IMG/VR virus record: IMGVR_UViG_3300021963_000097
Coordinates: 9,141 to 73,140 of that record
Source: a virus
DNA length: 64,000 bases
Reading direction: 5' to 3' (one strand)
Part shown: positions 6,221 through 63,357 of the stretch, one piece after another
Layout: each line of letters starts with the position of its first letter
Position numbering within the stretch: the stretch's first letter is position 1
Made by a program: the position numbers and the translations under genes
Notes under the pieces: generated by a model
What the model was told of the DNA's origin: nothing
The model's database searches: none
Seen by the model: only the letters and a program-made list of their open reading frames with translations

Positions 6221-7996
6221 ATGCCTAAGCCTAAAGAGCAAACGTTCTACCTCGGTAATAAAAACTTACCGGTACCAGAGACTAACTTTGACTGGACGCC
6301 AGAGATGGTGGAAGATCTTGAACGCGCACGCAAGTCTATATTACACTTCTCTCGTTTTTTTTATATTGTTAATCTTGACGAAGGTAAACAACCTATTAAG
6401 CTTTATACCTACCAGAAGCGTATATTAAAAGCACTCGTAGATAATAGATTTAACGTAGTACTTGCTTCGCGACAAATTGGTAAAACGACAATCCTAACTA
6501 TTTTTGCTCTCTGGATGGTGTGCTTCGCAGATGATTATAGAGTGCTTCTTATTGCTAATAAAGAAAGTACTGCTATTAATATCTTTAAACGTATTCGTTT
6601 AGCATATGAGATGTTACCTAACTTTTTAAAGCCAGGCGTTATCAACTATGCTAAGACTGGTATTGAATTAGCTAATGGTTCTTCTATTGGTATTAGTACT
6701 ACGACTTCAGATGCAGCCAGAGGTGAATCTATTAATTGCCTTTTAATTGATGAGGCTGCATTTATTCCGGCAGAGTTTATGAATGACTTTTGGGAATCAG
6801 TATTCCCGGTTATTTCGTCTTCTAAAAAGTCTAAGATCTTTATGTTGTCTACCCCTAATGGAGTGGGCAATCTCTTTTATAACATCTATACAGAATCATT
6901 AGATGGGGGTAATGGTTGGCATAATGAGAAAGTTGATTGGTGGGAGGTACCCGGTAGAGATGAAAAATGGAGAGACATGACTGCTAAGGCTCTCGGTTCT
7001 ACAGATGCATTCGATCAAGAGTACGGCAACTCCTTTAGATCTGCAGGGGAGAACGCTTTAGATAAAGATCAAATGGAAGAGTTTGAAAAGACTGCCCCAG
7101 ATCCCGTACTTGTAAGCGAAGACGGATGCTACACAATTTTTAGAGAAAGAAAGGATAGACATTTCTATACTATCGGGGTTGACGTGGGAGAGGGTATACA
7201 GAGAGCTAACTCCACTATACAAGTACTGGATATAACGGATTTAACTAACATAGAACAGGTCGCTTCCTACGCTAATAACAAGCTAGATCCTTTTAACTTT
7301 GCAGGGAAGCTCGTGGAAGTAGCCCATGAATGGGGACGTCCTCCTTTACTAGTAGAACGTAACAATTGCGGTGCCCAAGTAATCGATGCTTTAGTACATA
7401 CTCACAATTATGAGAGCATTGTGAAGTATACTCCGAGTATGGGTACTTTCACGGATAAGGTAGAAAGGGATAATCGGATGGGAGTGTATTCCCATACTAA
7501 TAGCAAGTTTAATGCAATGTCTAATCTTAGATATTGGATGGGCACCTTAAGATGCTTAAAGTTAAACGATAAAGAGACTATTCAAGAATTTAAAACCTAC
7601 GTAAGACAGGCTAATGGGGTGTGGAAGAAACAATCCGATCGCTATCTAGATGATAGAGTGGAAGCTTTAATTTGGGCATTATTTGCTCTAGATACCAAAG
7701 TTATAGAACAATTCTATGAGGTACTTGAGCGTGATGGTAATGGTAAGCCTTTAAAGATATTACCTCTTAATTGGAACCCTTACGAGGTAACTGATAACCA
7801 ATTTCCTAGTCAACAAGAATTATATAATAGATACGGTAAGGGCAAGATACCTTTAGATAGTAATCGTAATCCGGCTTTTATAGTAGGCAGCAATAAAGGT
7901 TCGGGCATTGCAGATATGGATGATATGATATCTCAAGGGTGGAAACCATTTAGCAGTAGCGGCAGTAGCGCCAGGCATGGTACTAGCTTATTTTAA
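6221..7996 (+). CDS. terL: Terminase large subunit (T4 gp17-like)
   Basis: Walker A ASRQIGKTT, Walker B LLIDEAAFI, STPNG coupling motif, nuclease GVDVGEG and DDRV. Confidence 0.97.
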   Translation: MPKPKEQTFYLGNKNLPVPETNFDWTPEMVEDLERARKSILHFSRFFYIVNLDEGKQPIKLYTYQKRILKALVDNRFNVVLASRQIGKTTILTIFALWMVCFADDYRVLLIANKESTAINIFKRIRLAYEMLPNFLKPGVINYAKTGIELANGSSIGISTTTSDAARGESINCLLIDEAAFIPAEFMNDFWESVFPVISSSKKSKIFMLSTPNGVGNLFYNIYTESLDGGNGWHNEKVDWWEVPGRDEKWRDMTAKALGSTDAFDQEYGNSFRSAGENALDKDQMEEFEKTAPDPVLVSEDGCYTIFRERKDRHFYTIGVDVGEGIQRANSTIQVLDITDLTNIEQVASYANNKLDPFNFAGKLVEVAHEWGRPPLLVERNNCGAQVIDALVHTHNYESIVKYTPSMGTFTDKVERDNRMGVYSHTNSKFNAMSNLRYWMGTLRCLKLNDKETIQEFKTYVRQANGVWKKQSDRYLDDRVEALIWALFALDTKVIEQFYEVLERDGNGKPLKILPLNWNPYEVTDNQFPSQQELYNRYGKGKIPLDSNRNPAFIVGSNKGSGIADMDDMISQGWKPFSSSGSSARHGTSLF

Positions 7997-10266: not shown

Positions 10267-12336
10267 ATGTCTGTCGATTTTCCTAATTTAATTTTTCCAC
10301 ATGAGCTTACTCAGGTTGTACCTATATCAGCGGATTTAATTTTTCTAGAAAGAAATAATGGTGGCGGGTCATATAGTTCTTATAGTACCACACTTTCAGC
10401 ATTATCAGCTGCAGGCTTTATAGGTCTTGACGGCACATCAGGATATTCAGGTTATAGCGGCATTCCTGGTTCAGCTGTAGCTTCTGGTTATTCTGGTTAT
10501 AGCGGCTCATCTGGTTACAGCGGCACGTCTGGTTATAGTGGGGTCGTCGGCAGCTCAGGCTATAGTGGGGTTTCCGGTTATAGTGGCGTTGACGGCAGTT
10601 CTGGTTTTTCTGGTTATAGTGGGGTCGTCGGCAGCTCAGGCTACTCTGGAGCATCAGGTTATAGTGGCATAGGTACCTCAGGCTACTCTGGAGCATCTGG
10701 TTATAGTGGCGTTATCGGCAGTTCTGGTTATTCTGGTTATAGCGGTACCGGCACTTCAGGCTATAGCGGCGTATCTGGTTATAGTGGAGATGGTACGTCT
10801 GGCTATAGTGGTACGTCTGGTTACAGTGGCGCGGGTGCGTCTGGTTATAGCGGTGTATCAGGCTATAGCGGTGCATCAGGCTATAGCGGTATTTCTGGTT
10901 ATACTGGAGAGTCTGGCTACAGCGGTATATCAGGCTATTCTGGTATTTCTGGTTACTCAGGTTCTGGTGTGTCAGGGTATAGTGGGGCCGGAACTTCTGG
11001 TTACTCTGGTTATAGTGGTGCGTCTGGCTATTACGGTCAAGACGGTGCTTCTGGTTATTCCGGTATATCAGGCTATAGTGGTATAGGTACTTCAGGCTAC
11101 TCTGGTACCTCTGGTTATAGCGGAGCAGGCGATTCAGGGTATTCAGGTTATTCCGGCGGCGGGGCCGTTTATGCTAACGATTTATTAGTATCATTAACGG
11201 GAGGTAGAACTTTTGGAAGGTATATAACTGGATCGATTATACCTGCGACGGGTAAAACAGCAGCTGAAGTTATTCAACTAGCTATAGCAGAGCCTATTGC
11301 ACCTTCAGTATCTTTAAGCACGCCTGCTGCTATTACATTTAATAATACAACAATTAGTAATGCTCTTACTTTCAGTTATATACTTAGTTCTGTTGGCGCG
11401 ACTGTTACTACAGCAATATTAGAGTGGGCGCGAGCAAGTACTCCTCCGTATGGTACTGGTGGGGCGTCTACTTGGGTAACTCTTTTCTCGGCAACGTCTG
11501 CAACAAGCTTTAGTATCACTCATACTTTAACGGACCAAAACTGGGCTACAAATACTTTTTATTATCGCTATACTGTTACAGACTCTGTAGGGGCTTCTGC
11601 GCAGGCTACAAGTCAACGCGCTCCAACCGCATATAGTAACCCTGGTGTGTCGCTTACGGTAGCTGCTATATCTGCCACAGCATCTCCTGAAACCTCTAGT
11701 AGTAGAGAAAAAGGTAATACAGCGACTACAGTTACTGGTACTATTACTCAAAATAATAATAGTACATATGTAGCATTAAGTGCATACAAATTACAATACA
11801 ATGCAGGTCCCTCTTGGGTAGATTTGGGTAACACGGTACTCATAGGCCCAGGAACGACTAGCGTGACATCTACAAGACTTGTTAATGATTCTCTTTCTGC
11901 TGCAACGTCAATTGCGTTCCGCGCCATAGTGTATGACGCGTATTACAATTCTCTTAATAGTAGTTACACTAGTGGTACGGCCGCTACTGTTTCTCTTTAT
12001 AATATGATATGGTACGGCCCCGTCGCAGCTGAACCCACTACATCCGCAGATGTTAGAGCAATGAATACTCGTCAGTTTATACAGGCCCTATCCAACCCAT
12101 TTAACTTAATAACCGGTACAACCTACCAGACGTTTACGGTAGCAATGCCTGCTACCGTTAGTATCACAAATGTGATCGACTTAGATGCATTAAATGCTGA
12201 TATAACTGCAAGCTATATTAATTCAACATTTAATGTAAATGATTATGCGGGTACAGCAGTATCATATAACGTCTATACAATGTCTAACGCATCAGTTTAT
12301 TCATCGTCTCATAGACACCAAGTAACTCGCGCTTAA
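10267..12336 (+). CDS. Fiber protein 1: SGY repeat plus beta-rich C-terminal domains
   Basis: About 250 aa of (SG-Y/V/I/T)n followed by Thr-rich Ig/FN3-like segments. Confidence 0.7.
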   Translation: MSVDFPNLIFPHELTQVVPISADLIFLERNNGGGSYSSYSTTLSALSAAGFIGLDGTSGYSGYSGIPGSAVASGYSGYSGSSGYSGTSGYSGVVGSSGYSGVSGYSGVDGSSGFSGYSGVVGSSGYSGASGYSGIGTSGYSGASGYSGVIGSSGYSGYSGTGTSGYSGVSGYSGDGTSGYSGTSGYSGAGASGYSGVSGYSGASGYSGISGYTGESGYSGISGYSGISGYSGSGVSGYSGAGTSGYSGYSGASGYYGQDGASGYSGISGYSGIGTSGYSGTSGYSGAGDSGYSGYSGGGAVYANDLLVSLTGGRTFGRYITGSIIPATGKTAAEVIQLAIAEPIAPSVSLSTPAAITFNNTTISNALTFSYILSSVGATVTTAILEWARASTPPYGTGGASTWVTLFSATSATSFSITHTLTDQNWATNTFYYRYTVTDSVGASAQATSQRAPTAYSNPGVSLTVAAISATASPETSSSREKGNTATTVTGTITQNNNSTYVALSAYKLQYNAGPSWVDLGNTVLIGPGTTSVTSTRLVNDSLSAATSIAFRAIVYDAYYNSLNSSYTSGTAATVSLYNMIWYGPVAAEPTTSADVRAMNTRQFIQALSNPFNLITGTTYQTFTVAMPATVSITNVIDLDALNADITASYINSTFNVNDYAGTAVSYNVYTMSNASVYSSSHRHQVTRA

Positions 12337-12348
12337 TAAATATTTAAA

Positions 12349-15300
12349 ATGTCTTTAACCCCAGGTCTACAACTTCCATATGGTATACAGCCGGTTAACC
12401 CGGTACCAGTTGATGCATGGTCCGGGCCATATACTGGTGCTACAGAAGTAGCGGCTCTTTCAGCTGCAAATGCAGCGATCACTGCTGGTATACGATTCCA
12501 GTCCATGCAGGTACGGCTTATTATAGCTAGTGTCCCGTACATATATTGGTATTATACCGGGGTAGCAGATGCTGATCTAGTGATATTTGCAGGCGGAGCA
12601 GGTTCTTCTGGTTACTCTGGATACTCAGGTATTAGTGGTGCTACAGGTGGAGCAGCGTCATCTGGCTACTCAGGCTACTCCGGTATATCTGGTTTCAGTG
12701 GCGATTCAGGCTACTCTGGTATTTCTGGCTTTAGCGGTATTTCTGGTACATCTGGTTATTCTGGTCAAGACGGATCATCTGGATATTCAGGCATAAGCGG
12801 TTACTCTGGTATTTCTGGAGCGTCTGGTTATTATGGACAAGACGGAGCATCTGGCTACTCTGGTATATCAGGTTACTCTGGTATATCTGGTTTCAGTGGT
12901 ATATCTGGCTATTCTGGTATAAGCGGTTGGTCTGGCTATTCTGGTATTTCTGGCTATAGTGGTATATCTGGCGAATCTGGATGGTCTGGCTATTCCGGAA
13001 TCTCAGGCTACTCTGGTATTAGTGGCTATTCGGGTATTTCCGGCTACTCTGGTATTAGTGGCGAAGCGGGCGCGGTCGCTGCATCAGGCTATTCTGGTAT
13101 ATCTGGTTACTCTGGTATATCTGGTTTCAGTGGTATATCTGGCTATAGTGGCTTTTCAGGTATATCTGGTTACTCAGGCGTCTCAGGTTTTTCAGGTTCA
13201 GGCTTTAGTGGGTATAGTGGCTTTAGTGGTCTTAACACCCCTTTACTTCAGACGGTAACTTATAATAATAATTTTACTGCCGGTCAAGTAATTTATAAAA
13301 CATCAGGGGGGTATGCGTTAGCGCGTGCTGACGCAGTTGAAACATCTGAAGCAATTGGTATAGTTCAAGCTGCTGACCCAACCCAATTTACATATGTAAT
13401 AAACGGAGCGATTTTTTACTTAACGGGGATTACAGACGCTGCATATTATTATTTATCTGATATTTCTGCGGGGGCACTCACCACCACCGCCCCTGAAAAT
13501 GTGGGTTGTGTAATTAAGCCCATGCTTATCGGCACTAGTAGTAGTACTGGTATTGTAGTTGAGTATCCTGGAGTAGTAATTGGGAGTACTAATAATGGTG
13601 CAAGCGGTTATTTAGCGTTATGGACTGGTAACCATTCTTTAGGTAATAGTATTATACAAGAGTTGAATGGTACTATAACTATTAATGGTATTGTAAATGT
13701 AACTGGCTCATATCAATTAAGTGGTGGTCCAATCGCTGCATCAGGTTACTCAGGCTATTCAGGTCATTATGGACAAGATGGTTCTTCTGGTTATAGCGGT
13801 AAGTCTGGCTATAGTGGTGTAATAGGCAATTCCGGACTTAGTGGTTATAGCGGTATATCAGGCTTTAGTGGGTCGGCATTTGTAGGCTCGTCTGGGTATT
13901 CTGGAGTATCAGGTTATTCTGGCTTTAGTGGCTACTCTGGTGTCTCGGGATGGTCCGGAATATCTGGTTTAGGAGTAACAGCAAGTTTTGCTCGAGGCTC
14001 TCGTAGTACCGCTCAAACAACTGGCTTAAGTGCAAACGGAGTAATATATTTTAATCAAACCGATATTAGCTACGGGTCTGATATTAGTTTAAATAATGCC
14101 AATGGGGTTATAACTTTAGCGGCAGATAAAACTTATAGACTGATAGCGTCTGTGCCGACCTGGGCAGGAAGTTCAGCGCGCCCGGCTTTTGGCTGGTATA
14201 ATAATACTACAAGCGCTTATATCGGTAGTATACAACCTAGCTACAACGTAGCAGATACAGCGGGTAATTCTGCTAACCCAAGTATAGCTGAATATATTTT
14301 TACCCCCGGGGTCAGTACTGATGTTACTTTTCGGGTTGCAGGTCTTATTGTCGGTACTCTATCTCAACTAGGGGCCAATACAGACTTTACAACCACTGGC
14401 TCTTATCCCTGGTTTGAAATTGAAGTAATTGCTGGTCAAGCACCCTCAATGTCAGGATATTCCGGTATTAGTGGTTACAGCGGAACAGGGGTGTCAGGCT
14501 GGTCAGGCTGGTCTGGCTATTCAGGTACCGGCCCTTCCGGTTACTCTGGTATTAGCGGTTATAGCGGAGTATCGGGTTATTCTGGTATCAGTGGTATTTC
14601 TGGTATATCAGGGTATTCTGGTGCGATAGGCACTGGCGGTGCGTTAGGATATTGGGGGTCATTCTGGGATACAACCACTCAAACTGCTTCGGCAATTAGT
14701 ACCCCGCAACCTATAACATTAAATAGTTATGATGTAGCTAATAACGGGATCACAGTTGCTTCGAGTAGTCAAATAACCTTTGCATATTCCGGGGTTTATA
14801 GTATTACATTTTCTATTCAATTAACCAATCGTGGCACTGCAAATGGGTCTACTCAATTTTTCCTTAAAAAGAATGGTACTATCTTAGCAGATACTAACTC
14901 TCACTACGACGTTCCAGATAAACAAGGAAGTGCGTTTTCATCAGAAATATTGACGGTAAATTTTGTCTTGTCGTTATCAGCTGGGGATTATTTGCAGCTT
15001 TTTTGGCAAACAGTTAATACTGATGTTTTAATTGAAACAATTCCTTCTAACTCGACTTACCCAAGATCTCCTTCAGTTATCTTAACAGCTACTCAAGTAA
15101 TGTACACCCAGTCCGGTTATTCTGGTACAAGTGGTTATTCTGGCTATTCTGGTTATAGTGGTATTTCTGGCTACTCTGGTATTAGCGGTTATTCCGGTAT
15201 ATCAGGCTATTCTGGCTATAGTGGGACAGGCACGTCTGGCTATTCTGGCTATAGCGGCGCAGGCACGTCTGGCTATTCTGGCTATAGCGGTTGGTCTGGT

Positions 15301-15714
15301 TATAGTGGTAGTGGGGTAAGCGGTTATTCTGGATATTCTGGGACAGGTTATACTGGTACTACAGGGTCTTGGACATTATCAGCTGGCGATAATACGGTAA
15401 GCTTTACTGTACCAATAGGTAACACTTACACAATGTGGGTTAATGGTAACATTCCGAACGGTATTTGCGTATGGAACGCAACTGCGACTGTCACAAATAC
15501 TAACGTTCCGGTAATCGGGGTACAGTATGCCTGGTATTACTTAGCTGGGAATGCCTTAACACTTACATCTATACCTGCTCAAATCCTAGGAACAGCCGGT
15601 GCTATTAGTACTGCTTCCCCCGCAGTTGGTACAACTACTAATGTGTTTATATTCGGTATCACTAATAATAGTGGTTCCTCTCAAGTAGTTAACTGGGGTT
15701 ATATTGAAATTTAA
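12349..15714 (+). CDS. Fiber protein 2: SG-aromatic repeats interleaved with globular (C1q/BclA-C-like) domains
   Basis: Several repeat blocks; GSFWDTTTQ...SGVYSITFSIQL...FLKKNG...LSLSAGDYLQL is C1q/BclA-C-like. Confidence 0.7.
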   Translation: MSLTPGLQLPYGIQPVNPVPVDAWSGPYTGATEVAALSAANAAITAGIRFQSMQVRLIIASVPYIYWYYTGVADADLVIFAGGAGSSGYSGYSGISGATGGAASSGYSGYSGISGFSGDSGYSGISGFSGISGTSGYSGQDGSSGYSGISGYSGISGASGYYGQDGASGYSGISGYSGISGFSGISGYSGISGWSGYSGISGYSGISGESGWSGYSGISGYSGISGYSGISGYSGISGEAGAVAASGYSGISGYSGISGFSGISGYSGFSGISGYSGVSGFSGSGFSGYSGFSGLNTPLLQTVTYNNNFTAGQVIYKTSGGYALARADAVETSEAIGIVQAADPTQFTYVINGAIFYLTGITDAAYYYLSDISAGALTTTAPENVGCVIKPMLIGTSSSTGIVVEYPGVVIGSTNNGASGYLALWTGNHSLGNSIIQELNGTITINGIVNVTGSYQLSGGPIAASGYSGYSGHYGQDGSSGYSGKSGYSGVIGNSGLSGYSGISGFSGSAFVGSSGYSGVSGYSGFSGYSGVSGWSGISGLGVTASFARGSRSTAQTTGLSANGVIYFNQTDISYGSDISLNNANGVITLAADKTYRLIASVPTWAGSSARPAFGWYNNTTSAYIGSIQPSYNVADTAGNSANPSIAEYIFTPGVSTDVTFRVAGLIVGTLSQLGANTDFTTTGSYPWFEIEVIAGQAPSMSGYSGISGYSGTGVSGWSGWSGYSGTGPSGYSGISGYSGVSGYSGISGISGISGYSGAIGTGGALGYWGSFWDTTTQTASAISTPQPITLNSYDVANNGITVASSSQITFAYSGVYSITFSIQLTNRGTANGSTQFFLKKNGTILADTNSHYDVPDKQGSAFSSEILTVNFVLSLSAGDYLQLFWQTVNTDVLIETIPSNSTYPRSPSVILTATQVMYTQSGYSGTSGYSGYSGYSGISGYSGISGYSGISGYSGYSGTGTSGYSGYSGAGTSGYSGYSGWSGYSGSGVSGYSGYSGTGYTGTTGSWTLSAGDNTVSFTVPIGNTYTMWVNGNIPNGICVWNATATVTNTNVPVIGVQYAWYYLAGNALTLTSIPAQILGTAGAISTASPAVGTTTNVFIFGITNNSGSSQVVNWGYIEI

Positions 15715-15810
15715 TAAAGAGAATTAAAAAATACAAATATATAATTTTATTTATTGGTATTTTTACCAATACCCTCGCGAGACTGTATAAGTATGTTATA
15801 ATACAAATTT

Positions 15811-18800
15811 ATGGCATTCTTTAACGTATACAATCCTGTCGGCGTCTCAGGCTATTCTGGTTACTCAGGCACCTCCGGGTTTTCCGGTATAGGTACTAGT
15901 GGCTATTCTGGTATTTCCGGCTACTCCGGCATATCAGGTGAATCTGGTTATTCAGGTATCAGCGGGTTCTCCGGCATATCTGGCTTCTCCGGCATATCGG
16001 GCACCTCAGGTTGGTCTGGTTATTCTGGCTACTCAGGCATCTCGGGATTTAGCGGCATAAGTGGCTGGTCTGGTTATTCAGGTATTTCTGGAGAGTCAGG
16101 CTTTAGTGGTATCTCCGGCTTCAGTGGTATTTCAGGTTATTCTGGTTATAGTGGTATATCAGGCTTCAGCGGCATTTCCGGCTGGTCTGGTTATTCTGGC
16201 TATTCAGGCATTTCAGGTTATAGTGGCATAAGTGGCTGGTCTGGTTATTCTGGTATATCTGGGGAATCAGGCTTCAGTGGTATATCCGGCTGGTCCGGTT
16301 ATTCTGGCATCTCAGGTTGGTCTGGTTATTCAGGCTACTCGGGTATATCCGGCTTTAGTGGTATTTCTGGCTATTCAGGCATCTCAGGCTTTAGCGGCAT
16401 ATCCGGCTGGTCTGGTTATTCTGGTATATCTGGCGAATCTGGCTTTAGCGGTATAAGCGGTTTTAGCGGCATAAGCGGTTGGTCAGGCTATAGTGGTATA
16501 TCTGGCTTTAGCGGTATATCAGGCTATTCTGGTATCTCTGGTGAATCTGGCTTTAGCGGTATATCTGGCTATTCAGGCATTTCTGGTTGGTCAGCATATT
16601 CAGGTTACTCTGGTATATCAGGCTATTCAGGCTATTCAGGCATTTCAGGCTTTAGCGGCATATCTGGCTTCAGCGGCATATCTGGCTTTAGTGGTATAAG
16701 CGGTTGGTCCGGGTATTCAGGCATATCTGGCGAATCTGGATTTAGCGGCATATCAGGCTTTAGCGGAATTAGCGGATGGTCTGGTTATTCAGGCTATTCT
16801 GGTATATCGGGTTACTCTGGTATATCTGGTTTTAGTGGTATATCTGGCGAATCTGGCTTCAGTGGTATCTCTGGCTTTAGTGGTATAAGCGGTTGGTCCG
16901 GGTATTCAGGCATTTCTGGCTTTAGCGGCATAAGCGGCTGGTCCGGTTATTCTGGTATAAGTGGCTATAGTGGTATATCTGGTTACTCAGGCATTTCTGG
17001 CTTTAGCGGTATATCTGGTTACTCAGGCATTTCTGGCTTTAGCGGTTCTGGCGTCTCAGGGTGGTCTGGTTATTCCGGCGCACCTGCAGTAGGGGTAACC
17101 TACTATTATTCTAATAGCGCTTCTGATATCGGTGGGTATGAATTAATGGATGTTGCTCCTGATAATGATCCAGAAGCATATTATACAGTAACTGTAAATC
17201 AAGCCGGTGGTAGAGTAATGTTTGTTGAACAAATTACTGAAATAGGCGAACCAGGAGCTACTGTAATACCAGTCGGTACTTGGCAGTGGAATACCTATTT
17301 CACTAACACCGACACTACTAATGGCACATCATTAGTGTTTGGTATTTTCACTCGCGCATCTAACGGTACTGAAACTTTACTCTTTTCAGCAACAAGCGCG
17401 CCATTAACTCAAACAGCAAGCCCAATACTCCAGACTACCCAGTTTACAATCGCTACCCCGATCAATACTGAAGTAACTGATCGTTTAGTTGCAAGAGTTT
17501 ATGCTCAAACCACTAACGCATCAAATGTAACTGCTGAATTATATTATGAGGGCTCGGCGCATTATTCTAACATCTCAACCGGTATATATCGTGGCGCTGT
17601 TGGTACGTCTGGTACTTCAGGTTATTCAGGTAAATCTGGTTATTCAGGCATATCTGGTTATTCAGGCATATCTGGTTATTCAGGCTTTAGCGGTATTTCA
17701 GGCTTTAGCGGTATATCAGGCTTCAGTGGTATCTCAGGTTGGTCTGGCTATTCAGGTATAAGCGGCTTCTCCGGCATCTCAGGGTGGTCTGGTTATAGCG
17801 GTTACTCTGGTATAAGCGGCTTTAGTGGTATATCTGGCTACTCAGGCATTTCAGGCTTTAGTGGTATATCTGGCGAGTCTGGCTTTAGCGGTATTAGCGG
17901 CTGGTCGGGCTATTCAGGCTACTCTGGTATTTCAGGTTACTCAGGCATTTCAGGCTTCAGCGGTATCTCTGGTTGGTCTGGTTATTCAGGCTACTCTGGT
18001 ATATCGGGTTACTCAGGCATATCTGGCGAGTCTGGCTTTTCTGGTATAAGCGGCTTTAGCGGTATATCTGGCTTTAGCGGTATCTCAGGCTGGTCTGGTT
18101 ATTCCGGTATATCTGGCTGGTCTGGTTATTCTGGTATAAGCGGCTTTAGCGGCATCAGCGGTTGGTCTGGTTATTCAGGTTACTCAGGCATTTCTGGTTA
18201 CTCAGGCATTTCTGGTTACTCTGGTATTTCTGGCGAATCTGGCTTTAGCGGCATATCCGGCTTCAGCGGCATCTCAGGATGGTCTGGCTATTCCGGCATA
18301 TCGGGCTTCAGTGGTATATCAGGCTATAGTGGCATTTCAGGCTACTCTGGTATCTCTGGCGAATCTGGCTTTAGCGGTATATCTGGTTACTCGGGTATTA
18401 GCGGATGGTCTGGTTATTCAGGCATCTCAGGCTTTAGCGGTATTAGCGGTTGGTCTGGTTATAGCGGGTATTCCGGTATATCAGGCTTCAGTGGTATCTC
18501 AGGTTGGTCTGGCTACTCTGGTATCTCAGGCTGGTCTGGCGAGTCAGGCTATAGTGGTATTTCAGGCTACTCAGGCATTTCTGGTTACTCTGGTATAAGC
18601 GGCTTCAGCGGTATCTCAGGCTGGTCTGGTTATTCAGGCTACTCAGGTATATCTGGCTTTAGCGGCGACTCAGGTTTATCAGGCTGGAGCGGTACTTCAG
18701 GCTACTCAGGTATATCTGGTACCTCAGGCTGGTCTGGTTTTTCAGGCTCTGGCGTATCCGGCTACTCTGGCTTTAGTGGCGACCCTGCCACAACCCAAGG

Positions 18801-19923
18801 CACAATAACTTATGCTAATAGCTTTACAGCAGGTCAAGTAGTTTATAAAACAGCAGGAGGCTATGCCCTTGCTAAAGCTGACTCAGCGGCAACAGTAAAC
18901 GCTATCGGCGTTATACAATCTTCGACAGGAAGTACATTTACAATTGTTTATAACGGTTATATTTCAGGTCTATCCAGTTTAACTGATGCTTACGGTTACT
19001 ATCTATCTGACTCAGTTGCGGGCGCTTTAACAGTTACAGCGCCGACCGCTAGCGGGTCATTTATTAAGCCGATATTAATAGCAACCAGTTCAACTACTGG
19101 TGTTGTTGTCGAATATCCTCCAGTACAAATTGGTTCTACTAATAATGGTACAAGCGGTTATCTTGCATTATGGACCAGTAATAATACTTTAGGTAACAGT
19201 GTAATATCAGAAAGTGGTGGTGACGTTACAGTCACAGGTAATATTAATATTACCGGCACACTTTCATTAAGTGGTTCGCCATTAGTCGGCGCTTCAGGAT
19301 ACTCAGGGTATTCTGGATTAACCGGTGGTGCTTCTGCTTCAGGTTACTCTGGTATATCTGGTTATAGTGGCTCCGGAGTGTCAGGCTATTCTGGTACAGG
19401 TATTTCTGGTTACTCTGGTATGTCTGGCCAAGGTGTCGTAGCAAGTATTACATATAACAATAGCTTTGCTGCTGGAGATATAGTTTATAGAACAGTCGGT
19501 GGTTATGCTAAATCCCAAGCCAATTCTGCAGCAAATGCTGAAGTTCACGGCGTGGTACAATCTGCCACTGGATCAGACTTCGTAGTAGTATATAGCGGAC
19601 CTATTACCGGACTAACTGGATTAAATGATAGTGCCGTATACTTCCTCTCTGATACAGTTGCGGGTTCAGCAGTACAAACTGCTCCAACCGCTCTTGGTAC
19701 TATTAATAAACCAGTATACGTTGCTACAAGCGCGACGACCGCGATTGTAATAAACATGCGCGGTATCGAAACCGGTAATCAAATTAGCACCTTCTTAACT
19801 GCAGTGCCCGCACTTACTTCTTCAGCGGGTGGTTCAGGTTTTTGGGCAGTAAATGATACTCACTTCTATGTATATAGTACTGTTAGTAATGTATGGCGTA
19901 GAGTTGCTATATCAACGTTTTAA
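15811..19923 (+). CDS. Fiber protein 3: very long (SG-Y/F/W/I)n repeats with globular inserts
   Basis: Two repeat tracts of about 400 aa; two copies of a TY.NSF.AG..VY.T.GGYA domain; C-terminal HFYVY...WRRVAISTF. Confidence 0.7.
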   Translation: MAFFNVYNPVGVSGYSGYSGTSGFSGIGTSGYSGISGYSGISGESGYSGISGFSGISGFSGISGTSGWSGYSGYSGISGFSGISGWSGYSGISGESGFSGISGFSGISGYSGYSGISGFSGISGWSGYSGYSGISGYSGISGWSGYSGISGESGFSGISGWSGYSGISGWSGYSGYSGISGFSGISGYSGISGFSGISGWSGYSGISGESGFSGISGFSGISGWSGYSGISGFSGISGYSGISGESGFSGISGYSGISGWSAYSGYSGISGYSGYSGISGFSGISGFSGISGFSGISGWSGYSGISGESGFSGISGFSGISGWSGYSGYSGISGYSGISGFSGISGESGFSGISGFSGISGWSGYSGISGFSGISGWSGYSGISGYSGISGYSGISGFSGISGYSGISGFSGSGVSGWSGYSGAPAVGVTYYYSNSASDIGGYELMDVAPDNDPEAYYTVTVNQAGGRVMFVEQITEIGEPGATVIPVGTWQWNTYFTNTDTTNGTSLVFGIFTRASNGTETLLFSATSAPLTQTASPILQTTQFTIATPINTEVTDRLVARVYAQTTNASNVTAELYYEGSAHYSNISTGIYRGAVGTSGTSGYSGKSGYSGISGYSGISGYSGFSGISGFSGISGFSGISGWSGYSGISGFSGISGWSGYSGYSGISGFSGISGYSGISGFSGISGESGFSGISGWSGYSGYSGISGYSGISGFSGISGWSGYSGYSGISGYSGISGESGFSGISGFSGISGFSGISGWSGYSGISGWSGYSGISGFSGISGWSGYSGYSGISGYSGISGYSGISGESGFSGISGFSGISGWSGYSGISGFSGISGYSGISGYSGISGESGFSGISGYSGISGWSGYSGISGFSGISGWSGYSGYSGISGFSGISGWSGYSGISGWSGESGYSGISGYSGISGYSGISGFSGISGWSGYSGYSGISGFSGDSGLSGWSGTSGYSGISGTSGWSGFSGSGVSGYSGFSGDPATTQGTITYANSFTAGQVVYKTAGGYALAKADSAATVNAIGVIQSSTGSTFTIVYNGYISGLSSLTDAYGYYLSDSVAGALTVTAPTASGSFIKPILIATSSTTGVVVEYPPVQIGSTNNGTSGYLALWTSNNTLGNSVISESGGDVTVTGNINITGTLSLSGSPLVGASGYSGYSGLTGGASASGYSGISGYSGSGVSGYSGTGISGYSGMSGQGVVASITYNNSFAAGDIVYRTVGGYAKSQANSAANAEVHGVVQSATGSDFVVVYSGPITGLTGLNDSAVYFLSDTVAGSAVQTAPTALGTINKPVYVATSATTAIVINMRGIETGNQISTFLTAVPALTSSAGGSGFWAVNDTHFYVYSTVSNVWRRVAISTF

Positions 19924-19978
19924 TTAATACTATTGGTGGTAACTTCTATATAAGATAGTAAATATATTTTACTATCTT

Positions 19979-22900
19979 ATGTCTTTCATTTATGCAAACC
20001 CGGTAGGGACTTCAGGATTTAGCGGCGTATCTGGCTATTCAGGTATATCAGGCTATAGCGGCATATCTGGATACTCTGGGCTAGGTGGCTCTAGTGGGTA
20101 CTCTGGCATAAGTGGTTATAGCGGTGTCAGTGGATTCTCCGGTATATCTGGTTATTCTGGTATTGGTATATCTGGCTATAGTGGTATTTCTGGCTGGTCG
20201 GGTTATAGTGGCTACTCGGGCATATCTGGTTATAGCGGCATATCGGGCTATTCAGGAGTTAGTAGCTATTCTGGCTACTCCGGTATTTCAGGTTATAGCG
20301 GCGTTAGCGGGTGGTCAGGCTATTCTGCCTATTCCGGTATTTCAGGGTATAGCGGTACTTCAGGTTGGTCCGGTTATTCCGGCATCTCTGGTGAATCTGG
20401 CTTTAGCGGCATATCAGGTTGGTCTGGCTATTCAGGCATCTCAGGCTTTAGCGGCATAAGCGGCTGGTCCGGTTATTCTGGCATATCTGGTTACTCAGGC
20501 ATATCTGGTTTCAGCGGCATCAGCGGCTGGTCTGGTTACTCAGGCATATCTGGTTATTCAGGCATCTCTGGGGAGTCTGGCTTTAGCGGCATATCAGGTT
20601 GGTCGGGCTATTCAGGCATTTCTGGTTACTCGGGCATTTCAGGCTTTAGCGGTATATCAGGTTACTCCGGTATTAGCGGGGAAGCGGGCCAAGCAGCAGC
20701 TTCAGGATACTCAGGGTATTCTGGACCGACCGGTGGGGCTTCAGCTTCAGGGTATTCAGGCATTTCAGGTTACTCAGGCATTTCTGCTTATTCAGGCATT
20801 TCAGGCTATTCAGGAAGCGGGGTATCAGGTTATAGTGGTATAGGTACAAGCGGTTACTCCGGCATATCAGGCTACTCAGGTATATCTGGTTACTCAGGCA
20901 TGAGCGGAGACTCTGGTTACTCAGGCATTTCTGGCTGGTCAGGCTATTCAGGCATATCTGGCTTCAGCGGTATTTCCGGTTGGTCTGGGTATAGCGGTAT
21001 CAGCGGGTATTCCGGTCACAGTGGTATAAGCGGGTACTCCGGTATTAGCGGTACAAGTGGTTACTCAGGTATCTCTGGTTGGTCGGGGTATAGCGGAGAC
21101 TCTGGTATTTCAGGTTGGTCCGGCACTTCAGGTTGGTCAGGTTACTCAGGCATTTCCGGCTGGTCCGGCTATTCTGGTTACTCAGGTACCTCAGGTATAA
21201 GCGGGTACTCAGGGTATTCAGGTACATCTGGTTATAGTGGTACGAGCGGTTGGTCTGGGTATAGTGGTATTAGCGGTTATAGTGGCATCAGTGGGTACTC
21301 AGGCATTTCTGGTTTTAGTGGCTCTGGTATTTCTGGTTACAGTGGTATTTCTGGTTACTCAGGTATCAGCGGCGCAACCGGAGCAGCTGCGCGGGAAACA
21401 ATTACCTATAATAATTCATTCGCTACCGGAAATATAATTAAAAAGACTTCTGGGGCTTATGCTCTAGCTCAAGCCGACTCAGCAGCAAATGCTGAAGTGC
21501 TCGGTATTATTCAAACCGCCAATGCTACTACCTTTACCATAATATATTCTGGACCTATTACTGGGCTTACCGGCTTAGTCGATAGTAGCGTATATTTCTT
21601 ATCAGACACGGTAGCAGGTTCTGCCGTATCAGTAGAGCCCACGACTGTCGGTAGTGTGTCTAAACCCGTAATGATCGCAACCGGCTCAACTACTGCTAAT
21701 GTAGAGATAATGAGAGGCTTTTTACTCGCTAATTCTATAGTAACAGGCACCGGAACTTCTGGGTATATAACTAAATTTACTTCTACTACAGCAATAGGTA
21801 ATAGTATAATTCAGGACAATGGTACTACGGTTTCGATAGGTGGAGCCATGACTGTCAGCAGCACGCTCGGCGTCACAGGCGTAGCCACATTAGGCAACGG
21901 AGCTATTCTAGGAACGCCAGCCAGCGGCACGGTGACGAATCTCACGGGGACGGCATCTATAAACATCAACGGGACCGTGGGAGCCACCACCCCTAGCACG
22001 ATTGCGGCGACGACGATTACATCAAAGATATCTACTGCAACAACCCCAATTACGCTTGGGGTTATTTCAGATTTTAACACTTACGGAGTTATTTCTTTTA
22101 ATAATATTTTAACAAATAGTGGCCGCCAAGGGATTGCAGGAGGTGCTGGTGACTTAAATCTTTATTACTCAGTTGCAACAGGCGGCGAGCATAGATTTGC
22201 TGTGGCAGGAGCTGCAGCTGTAGCCACAGTCTCCTCCACTGGCCTCGCGGTCACTGGGACTTTGTCGGCCACGGGGCAAATTACCAGCACAACGACTGGG
22301 CAATTTTTTCTTAACAACACACCGACCACTCAGGCTAATTATATGCGGCTCACGAATACGAGCGGCAATATGTATTTTGGTTTGGAAGGTGCAACGCCTA
22401 TTCTCGGAGGGACGGCATACGACACTATTTTGGTGGGTAAAACAGGACTGTCACTTTCTGGCAACGATGGTGGTGGCACACAACTCAGAGTTACTTCTGG
22501 AGGCGCGGCAATCACAGGGGCTTTGTCGGCCACATCATCAATATCAAATACAACGGCAAGCGGAACCGCTTCGGTTATCAACATTGCACAGACTGGAATT
22601 ATTGGTTGGAACATTACAAACGAAGCAACTACTGGACTGCTAAAAATTGGCGTTACATCGGGCGGGACAATACTCACGATGACCAATGGCACTGGCCTCG
22701 CGGTCACTGGGGCTTTGTCGGTCAGCGCACAAACTACTCTTGCAGGAGCCGTTCAAATTACCACCACTAGCTTTCCGTCAACTGGGGCGGGAATGGAACT
22801 TTCTTACAATGGTAATATTAGTTATGTGCAATCGTTTAACAGAACTGGAAGTGCATATACACCGCTTTATTTAATTGGTAGCAGTGTTCAAATTGCACCA

Positions 22901-23389
22901 AATGGGTCTTCGGTTGGTCTTTTCTCCTCCACTGGCCTCGCCGTCACAGGGGCTTTGTCTTGCACAGGCGCACTCTCCAAAGGTTCTGGCTCGTTTCGCA
23001 TCGAGCATCCGCTGCCATCTAAATCTGCTACACATCAACTCGTTCACTCCTTCATCGAGGGGCCAAAGTGCGACCTCATTTATCGCGGCAAAATCAACTT
23101 AGTAGACGGCAAAGCTACCGTAAACATCGACACCGATAGCACAATGACGGAAGGCACATTTGAAGTGCTATGCGCCAACGTGCAATGCTTCACGAGCAAC
23201 GAGTCTGGCTGGGGTGCAATTCGCGGTAAAGTGGTTGGCAACATCCTTACCATTGAAGCGCAAGATGCGGCATCCACAGACAACGTAAGCTGGATGGTAA
23301 TAGGCGAGCGCAAAGACCCGCACATCATGGACACGGATTGGACCGATAGCAATGGTCGTCCAATCGTTGAGCCACTCAAGCCAGTTTAA
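19979..23389 (+). CDS. Fiber protein 4: SG repeats, tail-fiber beta-modules, C-terminal chaperone-like domain
   Basis: GSFRIEHPL...LVHSFIEGP..DLIYRG C-terminal domain typical of phage fiber proteins; STGLAVTG repeats. Confidence 0.75.
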   Translation: MSFIYANPVGTSGFSGVSGYSGISGYSGISGYSGLGGSSGYSGISGYSGVSGFSGISGYSGIGISGYSGISGWSGYSGYSGISGYSGISGYSGVSSYSGYSGISGYSGVSGWSGYSAYSGISGYSGTSGWSGYSGISGESGFSGISGWSGYSGISGFSGISGWSGYSGISGYSGISGFSGISGWSGYSGISGYSGISGESGFSGISGWSGYSGISGYSGISGFSGISGYSGISGEAGQAAASGYSGYSGPTGGASASGYSGISGYSGISAYSGISGYSGSGVSGYSGIGTSGYSGISGYSGISGYSGMSGDSGYSGISGWSGYSGISGFSGISGWSGYSGISGYSGHSGISGYSGISGTSGYSGISGWSGYSGDSGISGWSGTSGWSGYSGISGWSGYSGYSGTSGISGYSGYSGTSGYSGTSGWSGYSGISGYSGISGYSGISGFSGSGISGYSGISGYSGISGATGAAARETITYNNSFATGNIIKKTSGAYALAQADSAANAEVLGIIQTANATTFTIIYSGPITGLTGLVDSSVYFLSDTVAGSAVSVEPTTVGSVSKPVMIATGSTTANVEIMRGFLLANSIVTGTGTSGYITKFTSTTAIGNSIIQDNGTTVSIGGAMTVSSTLGVTGVATLGNGAILGTPASGTVTNLTGTASININGTVGATTPSTIAATTITSKISTATTPITLGVISDFNTYGVISFNNILTNSGRQGIAGGAGDLNLYYSVATGGEHRFAVAGAAAVATVSSTGLAVTGTLSATGQITSTTTGQFFLNNTPTTQANYMRLTNTSGNMYFGLEGATPILGGTAYDTILVGKTGLSLSGNDGGGTQLRVTSGGAAITGALSATSSISNTTASGTASVINIAQTGIIGWNITNEATTGLLKIGVTSGGTILTMTNGTGLAVTGALSVSAQTTLAGAVQITTTSFPSTGAGMELSYNGNISYVQSFNRTGSAYTPLYLIGSSVQIAPNGSSVGLFSSTGLAVTGALSCTGALSKGSGSFRIEHPLPSKSATHQLVHSFIEGPKCDLIYRGKINLVDGKATVNIDTDSTMTEGTFEVLCANVQCFTSNESGWGAIRGKVVGNILTIEAQDAASTDNVSWMVIGERKDPHIMDTDWTDSNGRPIVEPLKPV

Positions 23390-61522: not shown

Positions 61523-61597
61523 TGGGTGCAGAGGTTGGAATTGAACCAACTACCTCCTGGTTATGAGCCAGACGAGCTACCGATGCTCTACTCTGCA
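61523..61597 (-). tRNA. tRNA-Met(CAU), initiator-like
   Basis: TCTGG-CTCATAA-CCAGG; A11:U24 pair and fMet-like body; U1-A72. Confidence 0.85.
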
Positions 61598-61709: not shown

Positions 61710-62110
61710 TGGTGGACCTGAGGGGAGTTGAACCCCTGTGTTCGGTAACTTTCCGATCAGTTTCTACAAGCTTAGTAGTAATGGTAAGTACTAATATCCT
61801 TACTACGAGATATTAGAATTTTCAGAATAACTATAATATCGTTTTATCTATTCTGATTCTCTTAAACGATATTCTCGCTGGATAACGGTTATAATATATA
61901 GCGAGAATCTACACTATAACCGATCACAGTTATTAGGCTGCGAGTGCGAATGCTTCAGTACCAGGAAAGGAAAAAGATTCCTTAACAGATGCTACAACAC
62001 TCTTGAGGCTTTGAATAATGCCATTTGTTGTTTTTTGCTAGTTTTGAAAGGTCTAACAACCCTGCTTGCTTCTAATAAGTCTATTACTGAATCGAATCCA
62101 GAACAGGCCC
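61710..62110 (-). ncRNA. ssrA: tmRNA
   Basis: 5' GGGCCTGTTCTGGATTCGA, 3' GGTTCAACTCCCCTCAGGTCCACCA, G3:U70 pair, tag frame ending FALAA-TAA-TAA (62022-61933). Confidence 0.93.
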
Positions 62111-62999: not shown

Positions 63000-63091
63000 T
63001 GGTAGTCGTGCTCGGACTTGAACCGAGACTCGGCGCCAATCTAGCGCGCACAGTTTATAAGGCTGTCGGTGCTACATTACACTACACGACC
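63000..63091 (-). tRNA. tRNA with UAU anticodon (Ile) and long variable arm
   Basis: GGTCGTG/CACGACT-ACCA; ACAGC-CTTATAA-ACTGT; about 22-nt variable arm; CTCGG-TTCAAGT-CCGAG. Confidence 0.8.
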
Positions 63092-63096
63092 AAAAT

Positions 63097-63357
63097 TGGT
63101 GGGCGGTAAGGGATTCGAACCCCTAACCAAAGGATTATGCTTACCACTATAGTTTTCACTACCTTTACAGTTTGTGGTCTGGACTATGCCTTTACCATTT
63201 TACAGGTAGCTGATTATAGTCTCTACACGTTTCATTACGATTTCGCTCGGCGTTGGGATGTTAAACCGTTCACCGAATTTACAGCTTACTACTGTAACGT
63301 TTCCATTACAGCGACCCTTAATTAAGTCCTCTGCTCTAACCGTTGAGCTAACCGCCC
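63097..63357 (-). tRNA. tRNA-Ile2/Met(CAU) interrupted by a group I intron (exons 63357-63325 and 63139-63097)
   Basis: Spliced: GGGCGGTTAGCTCAACGGTTAGAGCAGAGGACT^CATAATCCTTTGGTTAGGGGTTCGAATCCCTTACCGCCCACCA; G1-C72, ileX-like body. Confidence 0.9.
63140..63324 (-). mobile_element. Group I intron, 185 nt, ORF-less
   Basis: P1 with U.G at the splice site (GACU/GGUC); P AAATTCGGTGAA, Q AACGCCGAGC, R GTAGAGACTA, S AAGGCATAGTCC; terminal G. Confidence 0.9.

What the first reader, a model, noticed from the sequence alone, without database searches (positions are those of the whole stretch)
63140..63324. 185-nt group I intron in a phage tRNA anticodon loop, a candidate minimal natural group I ribozyme
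Seen: inserted after U33 (CU^CAU). P1 GACU/GGUC with a U.G splice pair, P2 GCTGTAATG-GAAA-CGTTACAGT, P3 AGCTG/CAGCT, P4 TTCGGT/GCCGAG, P7 GACTA/TAGTC, P8 TACC/GGTA, P9 ACCAC/GTGGT, terminal G; no homing ORF. Removal restores a canonical 76-nt tRNA. Known: the Azoarcus tRNA-Ile intron (about 200 nt) is among the smallest self-splicing group I introns, and the U33 site is used by cyanobacterial tRNA-fMet introns. Inference: a very compact intron in an Ile2-type phage tRNA; splicing could gate AUA decoding or hide the anticodon from nucleases.
Basis: partly seen in the sequence, partly recalled or inferred. Interest (0 to 1): 0.75.

Follow-up and report, generated by a model that had tools for sequence, protein, structure and literature searches.

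The report
Compact self-splicing intron in phage tRNA
A freshwater phage's isoleucine-type tRNA gene is split by a real, very small (185-base) self-splicing-type intron, but it belongs to a large family of similarly small introns in phage and bacterial tRNA genes and is not a unique minimum.

Summary
On the minus strand, 63324-63140 is a 185-nt group I intron between U33 and C34 of a tRNA(CAU) gene (63357-63097). All core helices are present. A U.G pair marks the 5' splice site and a G ends the intron. Removing it gives a 76-nt cloverleaf. Helices are backed by covariation in 35 relatives, and the copy matches 81 of 82 highly conserved columns. A DNA contig carries the same tRNA uninterrupted, joined exactly at the predicted sites. 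One metatranscriptome contig shows the same join, but it could be spliced RNA or an intron-less strain.

Published acceptor-stem discriminators class the tRNA as Ile2 (lysidine) type. AUA makes up 43% of this phage's Ile codons.

The "minimal ribozyme" claim does not hold. Relatives of 178 and 184 nt exist, and 35 of 55 well-mapped family introns are shorter than the 205-nt Azoarcus intron. The same site is used in bacterial tRNA-fMet and Ile2-type genes. I found no evidence for gating or nuclease hiding.

The most likely reading is a mobile, phenotypically neutral self-splicing intron. The scan has noted phage tRNA introns before on other DNA. My five paper searches found no description of one, and a 2014 review says none had been observed.

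The parts
63097..63357 (-). Whole interrupted tRNA(CAU) gene, Ile2-type, with encoded CCA
   Evidence: ARAGORN with introns allowed; acceptor and D-stem discriminators
63325..63357 (-). 5' exon, 33 nt, ending in C32 U33
   Evidence: contiguous with the 3' exon in the empty-site allele L274
63140..63324 (-). Group I intron, 185 nt, no ORF
   Evidence: RF00028 37.3 bits over the full model; family model R1 167.3 bits, though this row was in the training set
63097..63139 (-). 3' exon, 43 nt, starting with anticodon CAU
63313..63328 (-). P1: exon GACU plus intron U1, paired with guide GGGUC (intron 8-12). U(-1).G9 marks the splice site and U1.G8 is a second wobble pair
   Evidence: column pairs 78% paired in A1
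63291..63312 (-). P2, 9 bp with a GAAA tetraloop (intron 13-34)
63281..63286 (-). P3 5' strand (intron 39-44)
   Evidence: RNAalifold: every P3 pair has compensatory changes
63208..63213 (-). P3 3' strand (intron 112-117)
63247..63276 (-). P4-P5 domain (intron 49-78): P4 6 bp, P5 2 bp with an 8-nt loop
   Evidence: P4 99.5% and P5 98.6% of cells paired
63227..63246 (-). P6 (3 bp) and a shortened P6a hairpin (intron 79-98)
   Evidence: 100% and 90.5% of cells paired; 20 nt against a family median of 25
63217..63223 (-). P7 5' strand with bulged A103 (intron 102-108); holds the presumed guanosine-binding G-C pair
   Evidence: matches the Rfam consensus AGACUA; 6 pairs, 100% paired, one covarying A-U/U-A
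63181..63186 (-). P7 3' strand (intron 139-144)
63194..63207 (-). P8 reduced to 3 bp with an 8-nt loop (intron 118-131)
   Evidence: 14 nt against a family median of 23; the same short module occurs in 7 other viral contigs
63143..63178 (-). P9 domain (intron 147-182): closing helix ACCAC/GUGGU, a 2-bp hairpin with a GUAA loop, and a 5-bp hairpin with a GAAA loop
   Evidence: 97-99% of cells paired, with compensatory changes in all three helices
63140..63140 (-). Terminal (omega) G
   Evidence: the joint at 63139|63325 is seen in L274 DNA and in one RNA-library contig

Best explanation
This is a genuine, intact group I intron of the compact bacterial-tRNA type (probably subgroup IC3). It interrupts a phage tRNA-Ile2-type (CAU, lysidine-dependent) gene between U33 and C34.

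Inferred mechanism:
- The pre-tRNA folds so that exon GACU pairs with the intron guide GGUC (P1).
- A free guanosine bound in P7 attacks after U33, at the U.G wobble pair.
- The terminal G185 then takes the same pocket, and the freed U33 3'-OH attacks after G185.
- The exons, held together by the anticodon stem, are joined into a 76-nt tRNA.
- The tRNA can then be lysidinylated and used for AUA, a very common codon in this phage.

The intron is an optional, mobile, essentially neutral passenger. Its lineage has moved between tRNA-Leu and tRNA(CAU) genes of phages. It has been trimmed in P8, P6a and the P1 loop to 185 nt.
For: Shown:
- Full-length RF00028 match.
- 35-sequence family alignment with 85% of cells paired against 35-41% for slid controls, 37 of 55 pairs with double changes, 0 of 500 shuffles as high.
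- 81 of 82 columns that are at least 90% conserved agree. The one exception is a compensated P5 pair.
- U.G at the 5' site and G at the 3' end.
- The spliced product is a canonical cloverleaf.
- Empty-site DNA allele L274 has both exons contiguous (44 nt 100%, 37 nt 97.3%) and is called as an uninterrupted tRNA.
- Of 40 loci with the same 27-nt tRNA core, 31 have no intron, 3 have an intron at 33/34 and 6 at 36/37.
- One metatranscriptome contig (run X18, 1 of 4 RNA runs laid) joins 63139 to 63325, skipping exactly 185 nt, with about 94% identity to the window's upstream flank.
- The tree places the intron in a clade with SH-aLRT 96, made of 7 CAU and 2 Leu introns. The CAU label needs at least 2 changes.
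- AUA is 558 of 1305 Ile codons.

Inferred: the chemistry of splicing, autonomy from proteins, and lysidine modification by the host.
Against: - Catalysis has not been tested.
- The RF00028 score is below Rfam's gathering cut-off (37.3 against 50).
- The single RNA-library contig has depth 2.1 and differs from the window by 7 letters in 128. It could come from DNA or RNA of an intron-less strain. I laid no DNA run, because the tool allowed one call.
- P8 lacks the long internal-loop form seen in 30 of 35 relatives, so a tetraloop-receptor contact may be weakened.
- The minimum-free-energy z-score is only -1.73.
- P1 has two adjacent U.G pairs, so the splice site is fixed here by the exon products, not by P1 alone.
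Confidence: 0.85

Rival explanations
1. It is a group I intron that no longer splices efficiently on its own. Trimming of P8 and P6a would make it depend on a host or phage protein, or on high Mg2+, to fold.
For: P8 is 14 nt against a family median of 23, and P6a region 20 against 25. 30 of 35 relatives keep a longer P8 with an internal loop. In Azoarcus the P8 and P5 helices are the receptors for the P2 and P9 GAAA loops (PMC2813881 passage).
Against: The same short P8 module is kept unchanged in 7 other viral contigs, in tRNA-Leu introns of 193-195 nt. This points to a working variant, not damage. All three GNRA loops and the core are intact.
Confidence: 0.15
2. The intron is kept for a function: it times or gates AUA decoding, or it keeps the anticodon loop out of reach of anticodon nucleases until splicing.
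For: AUA is unusually frequent, at 42.8% of Ile codons and 29.9 per 1000 codons, so this tRNA matters to the phage. Phage tRNAs have been proposed to evade tRNA-targeting defences (PMC10264068, search listing and abstract only).
Against: 31 of 40 loci with the same tRNA core lack any intron. The same lineage sits in Leu, Lys, Arg and CAU tRNAs. The mature tRNA is as exposed as any other once spliced. No regulatory element was seen.
Confidence: 0.08
3. The gene is a dead tRNA carrying an inactive intron remnant.
For: The match falls below the Rfam cut-off, and standard tRNA finders miss the gene.
Against: 81 of 82 conserved columns agree. Both splice-site nucleotides and every helix are intact. 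Identical copies occur in two further contigs, one in a different upstream context. The exons form a perfect cloverleaf.
Confidence: 0.04

Closest known systems
Bacterial tRNA-fMet group I intron (class fMet.2Ug of Williams 2020, first described in cyanobacteria)
   Same: Same insertion site, between U33 and C34 (CU^CAUAA), with U(-1) and a terminal G. The same 23-nt 3' end plus exon pattern is found in 42 bacterial species' genomes. 14 of 21 distinct host tRNAs there are initiator-type.
   Different: The host tRNA here is Ile2-type, not initiator. The credibly mapped bacterial copies I parsed are 224-668 nt, against 185 nt here. No endonuclease ORF lies inside the intron.
[quoted passage not shown]
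   Same: Compact intron without an ORF in the anticodon loop of a tRNA-Ile(CAU). GAAA tetraloops cap P2 and P9.
   Different: The Azoarcus intron is inserted after the anticodon (36/37), not at 33/34. This one is 20 nt shorter, its P8 is a bare 3-bp hairpin, and its P9 domain has two GNRA hairpins. I made no direct sequence comparison because the Azoarcus sequence was not fetched.
tRNA-Leu(UAA) group I introns (class Leu.3Ug), in particular copies in uncultured phages
   Same: Closest by sequence. 71.6% identity over 173 nt to the copy in the 735-kb phage record LR756501. 50 of 55 mapped family introns sit in tRNA-Leu(UAA). All belong to one well-aligned family.
   Different: The splice site lies one base pair earlier in the homologous P1 helix. 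The first intron base U1 occupies the column of Leu U34.
Group I introns in phage protein genes (for example crAss-like DnaB helicase introns with GIY-YIG genes)
   Same: The 3' core (J8/7-P7-P9) is 81-91% identical over 46-69 nt.
   Different: Those introns interrupt protein-coding genes and carry or adjoin homing endonuclease genes.

Membership tests
Group I intron (Rfam RF00028) | Core helices P3-P9 with the P3/P7 pseudoknot and the conserved J8/7 and P7 sequences | tested here: met
   Full-length model alignment; covariation in every helix
Group I intron (Rfam RF00028) | Score at or above Rfam's gathering cut-off | tested here: not met
   37.3 bits against 50. Williams 2020 notes that none of the 12 Rfam seeds he used was bacterial.
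Group I intron (Rfam RF00028) | U.G wobble pair at the 5' splice site in P1, and a terminal G before the 3' splice site | tested here: met
   U(-1).G9 and G185
Group I intron (Rfam RF00028) | Guanosine- and Mg2+-dependent self-splicing | not testable with these tools
   Needs an in vitro assay
Group I intron (Rfam RF00028) | Exons joined in RNA at the predicted sites | tested here: inconclusive
   One contig in 1 of 4 RNA runs joins 63139|63325, but the same join exists in DNA allele L274
Subgroup IC3 (bacterial tRNA introns) | Assignment by subgroup-specific models or the GISSD classification | not tested
   Inferred only from homology to tRNA-Leu and tRNA-fMet type introns, which Williams 2020 says are all marked IC3
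fMet.2Ug class | Insertion between nucleotides 33 and 34 of a CAU anticodon loop | tested here: met
fMet.2Ug class | Host is an initiator tRNA (C1xA72, A11-U24, G-C pairs at the base of the anticodon stem) | tested here: not met
   G1-C72, C11-G24, anticodon stem GAGGA/UCCUU
tRNA-Ile2 (lysidine) genes | G3 or A3 with C70 or T70; C4-G69 frequent; no A11-T24/G12-C23 (Silva et al. 2006) | tested here: met
   G3-C70, C4-G69, D-stem GCUC. 5-68 is G-C, not C-G. Identity to E. coli Ile2 (55/76) and metT (53/77) does not discriminate.
Azoarcus-type Ile2.5Ug class | Insertion after the anticodon (36/37) | tested here: not met
   The intron lies at 33/34. Six loci with the same tRNA core do carry an intron at 36/37.

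The most novel reading that the evidence does not exclude
The compact clade that holds this intron and the 178-nt L054 copy may contain the smallest autonomous group I ribozymes in nature. In it, the usual long P8 receptor helix is replaced by a bare 12-nt hairpin (CCUGUAAAAUGG). That hairpin resembles the conserved P5 loop and may serve as a new, minimal docking site for the P2 GAAA loop. If it self-splices, it would give a smaller scaffold than Azoarcus for structural and origin-of-life work.
Probability: 0.3. Interest if true: 0.6.

Novelty: new member of a known kind. Interest (0 to 1): 0.4.

Why it matters
- Standard annotation misses this tRNA, so phage AUA-decoding capacity is undercounted.
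- The case adds to evidence that group I introns are common in phage tRNA genes. A 2014 review (PMC3984707) states that all phage introns then observed lay in protein genes.
- The family offers many natural ribozymes under 205 nt for folding and minimal-ribozyme studies.
- The three allele states of one tRNA (empty, intron at 33/34, intron at 36/37), plus a neighbouring nuclease gene in one variant, make a tractable system for studying how introns without ORFs spread between tRNA genes.

Tried and rejected
- Rfam at gathering score and default ARAGORN gave nothing at the site.
- An Rfam E-value scan of three related loci together gave 0 hits, although L001 holds an intron. This is a filter effect.
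- Spans of family-model hits as short as 131-175 nt were rejected as intron lengths. The alignments end early and the introns run on.
- The 16-letter pattern gave 95 loci, but only 27 were credible tRNA(CAU) introns. The rest are at chance level.
- Three of 42 bacterial loci gave no tRNA model, and about 7 exon models were spurious. I dropped them before counting.
- Identity to E. coli tRNAs did not settle the isotype. Phage GenBank labels all said tRNA-Met.
- Pfam and PHROGs found no nuclease in the ORFs flanking the intron in the window.
- RNA runs X15, X16 and X17 showed no joint at the splice sites. Their cover of the intron comes from relatives 90-95% alike. Parts without cover are not evidence.
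- The 92-nt neighbouring tRNA had no match in the phage collection.
- My regex counts of receptor motifs and L2 loops were unreliable because of alignment register. I use only the list of short P8 rows from that call.
- Literature: five searches found no paper on group I introns in phage tRNA genes. One search found no paper naming a smallest group I intron.
- Table 1 and the seed alignment of Williams 2020 are an image and supplements that I could not see. They may already list an Ile2.2Ug class.
- The earlier-findings look-up for this genome returned nothing.

Full report
WHAT IS THERE

The window comes from a 73-kb fragment of an uncultured virus record that CheckV rates about 32% complete. 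It carries a large terminase, a tail sheath and an array of collagen-like tail fibre genes. At its right end it has a cluster of seven plain tRNA genes and a tmRNA.

On the minus strand, 63357-63325 reads as the first 33 nt of a tRNA, up to C32 U33. 63139-63097 reads as the remaining 43 nt, starting with CAU and ending in CCA. ARAGORN with introns allowed reports tRNA(cat) with an intron of 185 nt at tRNA position 34. The computed spliced product folds as a regular 76-nt cloverleaf. Default ARAGORN and Rfam at its curated threshold both miss the gene.

IS IT A GROUP I INTRON

Rfam's RF00028 aligns to 63158-63333(-) over the whole model at 37.3 bits, with E 5.8e-8 in a 601-nt search. That is below the gathering score of 50. 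The conserved P7 and J8/7 sequences are matched.

Against phage records, 173 nt are 71.6% identical to an intron in a tRNA-Leu(UAA) gene of the 735-kb phage record LR756501. The 3' core is 81-91% identical to introns in the DnaB helicase genes of crAss-like phages that carry GIY-YIG genes.

ARAGORN with introns allowed made 70 split-tRNA calls on them. For 55 of these a U precedes the intron, a G ends it, and the motif lies inside. Fifty of the 55 are tRNA-Leu(UAA).

I aligned 35 non-redundant members of 178-218 nt (chosen from 56 distinct introns of at most 265 nt, thinned by shared words, with four longer than 218 left out).
- RNAalifold predicts P2, P3, P4, P5, P6, P6a, P8 and the three P9 helices. 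34 of its 43 pairs have compensatory changes.
- With P1 and the P7 pseudoknot added, 85.0% of cells pair, against 35-41% with slid partners.
- 37 of 55 pairs change on both sides, and 0 of 500 shuffles reach the observed values.
- P2 and P3 score lower there (60% and 52%), because I used the window's register, which MAFFT offsets by one column. RNAalifold's register pairs them well.

The window's copy agrees with 81 of the 82 columns that are at least 90% conserved in the other 34 rows. The one exception is a compensated P5 pair. A covariance model built from the alignment finds this intron and no other in the window.

ANATOMY (intron numbering; window coordinate = 63325 minus position)
- P1: exon GACU plus U1, paired with G8-C12. 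U(-1).G9 is at the splice site.
- P2: 13-34, with a GAAA loop.
- P3: 39-44 with 112-117.
- P4: 49-54 with 73-78.
- P5: 58-59 with 68-69, around an 8-nt loop.
- P6: 79-81 with 96-98.
- P6a: 85-93.
- P7: 102-108 with 139-144, with A103 bulged.
- P8: 118-131.
- P9: 147-151 with 178-182, enclosing a GUAA hairpin (155-162) and a GAAA hairpin (163-176).
- The intron ends in G185.

The minimum-free-energy fold alone recovers P2, P3, P4, P5, P8 and P9, with a z-score of -1.73.

P1 has two adjacent U.G pairs. Only cleavage after U(-1) gives a 7-nt anticodon loop, and the empty-site allele described below confirms it.

EXACT BOUNDARIES AND OPTIONAL PRESENCE

A 27-nt stretch of the 5' exon finds one IMG/VR contig and 39 metagenome contigs. 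Of these 40 loci:
- 31 have the tRNA uninterrupted.
- 2 carry the identical 185-nt intron. L277 is the same phage (99.7% over 2653 nt). L301 has a different upstream context.
- 1 (L292) has another intron at 33/34.
- 6 have an intron after the anticodon, at 36/37.

L274 has both exons contiguous, with 44 nt at 100% and 37 nt at 97.3% identity, and is called as a plain tRNA. The family model does not hit it. So the insertion is delimited to the base, and the site is polymorphic.

RNA EVIDENCE

I laid four RNA-library runs on the region. One (X18) has a 190-nt contig of depth 2.1 that joins 63139 to 63325, skipping exactly 185 nt. It runs on into the upstream flank with 6 differences in 96 nt.

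This may be spliced, not yet 5'-processed RNA of a sister strain. It may also be an intron-less strain. The one DNA contig with a homologous upstream flank throughout (L277) carries the intron; L301 carries it behind a 745-nt upstream insertion, while the empty-site contig L274 has unrelated flanks. That leans towards RNA, but the sample is tiny.

WHICH tRNA

The tRNA is not an initiator: it has G1-C72, C11-G24 and no G-C run at the base of the anticodon stem. Silva et al. 2006 report two discriminators. G3 or A3 with C70 or T70 marks tRNA-Ile(CAU) against both Met types. A11-T24 with G12-C23 marks fMet (PMC1635315 passages). This tRNA has G3-C70 and C4-G69, so it classes as Ile2-type. Identity to E. 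coli Ile2 (55/76) and elongator Met (53/77) does not discriminate.

By the same rules, 13 of 15 distinct viral host tRNAs of this intron class are Ile-type. Among bacterial hosts, 14 of 21 are initiator-type and 6 are Ile-type. Some acceptor registers there are approximate.

AUA is 558 of 1305 Ile codons in 46 ORFs of the window. A working AUA decoder is therefore plausible for this phage.

SIZE

The Azoarcus intron is 205 nt (PMC13168695 passage). Of the 55 mapped family introns, 35 are shorter than that. Two are shorter than this one:
- L054, 178 nt, checked by eye.
- L075, 184 nt, in tRNA-Lys.

Within the class at 33/34 of tRNA(CAU), this is the shortest I saw. The 16 distinct viral copies run 185-553 nt, and the credibly mapped bacterial copies run 224-668 nt. 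Both samples were drawn with fixed patterns, so they are not complete.

The saving lies in three places:
- P8: 14 nt against a median of 23.
- P6a: 20 against 25.
- The P1 loop: 18 against 21.

The short P8 hairpin recurs unchanged in seven other contigs. Five of the 35 aligned rows have a short P8.

In Azoarcus, P8 and P5 receive the GAAA loops of P2 and P9 (PMC2813881 passage). Whether the short hairpin still does this is an open inference.

MOBILITY

With the P1 columns left out, the intron falls in a clade with SH-aLRT 96, made of 7 CAU and 2 Leu introns. Its nearest relative is L213, at 87% identity over 173 columns. The CAU label needs at least two changes on starred branches. The lineage has therefore changed host tRNA.

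In the alignment, the window's U1 occupies the column of U34 of tRNA-Leu. This fits a move to a similar ACU site.

No nuclease gene lies in or beside the intron in the window. In L301, however, a 745-nt insertion just upstream of the tRNA encodes a 243-aa protein. It matches Pfam Phage_endo_I at 29.4 bits (cut-off 29.1) and PHROG 15137 at 1.8e-18. Homologues lie within about 1 kb of intron-bearing tRNA genes in L154, L012 and L179/L212. That sample has no proper background.

LITERATURE AND EARLIER NOTES

Hausner et al. 2014 state that all phage introns observed to that date are in protein genes, despite many phage tRNA genes (PMC3984707 passage). Williams 2020 catalogues 5292 introns in 21 tRNA settings in bacteria. 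The four classical settings are Leu.3Ug, Arg.5Ug, fMet.2Ug and Ile2.5Ug (whole text read; the table and supplements were not visible). Jug phages have many introns of about 206 nt in protein genes (PMC12880540 passages). Five searches found no paper on introns in phage tRNA genes.

The scan's own earlier notes record the same kind on other DNA, including a phage tRNA-Ile2 intron and a 184-nt intron in a bacterial tRNA-Tyr. These are leads, not evidence.

VERDICT

This is a real, intact, very compact group I intron in a phage Ile2-type tRNA gene. It is a new member of a known and widespread kind. It is neither uniquely minimal nor shown to have a function beyond its own persistence.

Noticed in passing
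window 63000-63091 (-): A 92-nt tRNA lies 5 nt downstream of the split gene. It has anticodon UAU, a C.A mismatch at the base of the anticodon stem, a short D-loop and a long (about 20-nt) variable arm. That is a class II shape, which is unusual for an AUA reader. Rfam tRNA scores it 42.1 bits. It has no match in the phage collection, but it is conserved 100% in L301.
   Followed up: partly
window 61710-62110 (-): A full-length tmRNA gene (RF00023, 99.5 bits) is encoded by the phage, inside the tRNA cluster.
   Followed up: no
window 61523-61597 (-): A second tRNA(CAU) has initiator marks (C3-G70, A11, G12) but U1-A72 in place of the C1xA72 mismatch, and discriminator C.
   Followed up: partly
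L301 136-867 (+): A variant of the same locus has a 745-nt insertion directly upstream of the intron-bearing tRNA, overlapping it by 36 nt. It encodes a 243-aa T7-endonuclease-I-like (PD-(D/E)XK type) protein. Homologues lie near intron-bearing tRNA genes in L154, L012 and L179/L212. It is a candidate free-standing homing nuclease.
   Followed up: partly
L275, L281, L287, L296, L298, L304: Metagenome contigs with the same 27-nt tRNA core carry a group I intron after the anticodon (36/37, the Azoarcus-type site) instead of at 33/34. Family model scores are 47-124 bits.
   Followed up: partly
L030, L038, L080, L036: Family introns sit in viral tRNA genes that ARAGORN reads with anticodon UCA, a possible UGA reader. 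ARAGORN's boundaries are off, with no U/G at the ends, and I did not remap them.
   Followed up: no
L054 1990-2245 (+): The 178-nt intron sits in a tRNA with anticodon UAA that is only 75 nt when spliced, so it lacks the long variable arm expected of tRNA-Leu.
   Followed up: no
L268 about 6700-7000 (-): A tRNA-Leu-type intron with the short P8 module seems to carry an ORF ending in an HNH-like motif near its 5' end. I saw this by eye in the printed sequence only.
   Followed up: no
window 1-60759 (46 ORFs): AUA is 42.8% of Ile codons and twice as frequent as AUG, at 40% G+C.
   Followed up: yes
window 10267-23389 (+): Four consecutive large ORFs (689-1370 aa) have repeated collagen-like tail fibre matches.
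   Followed up: no
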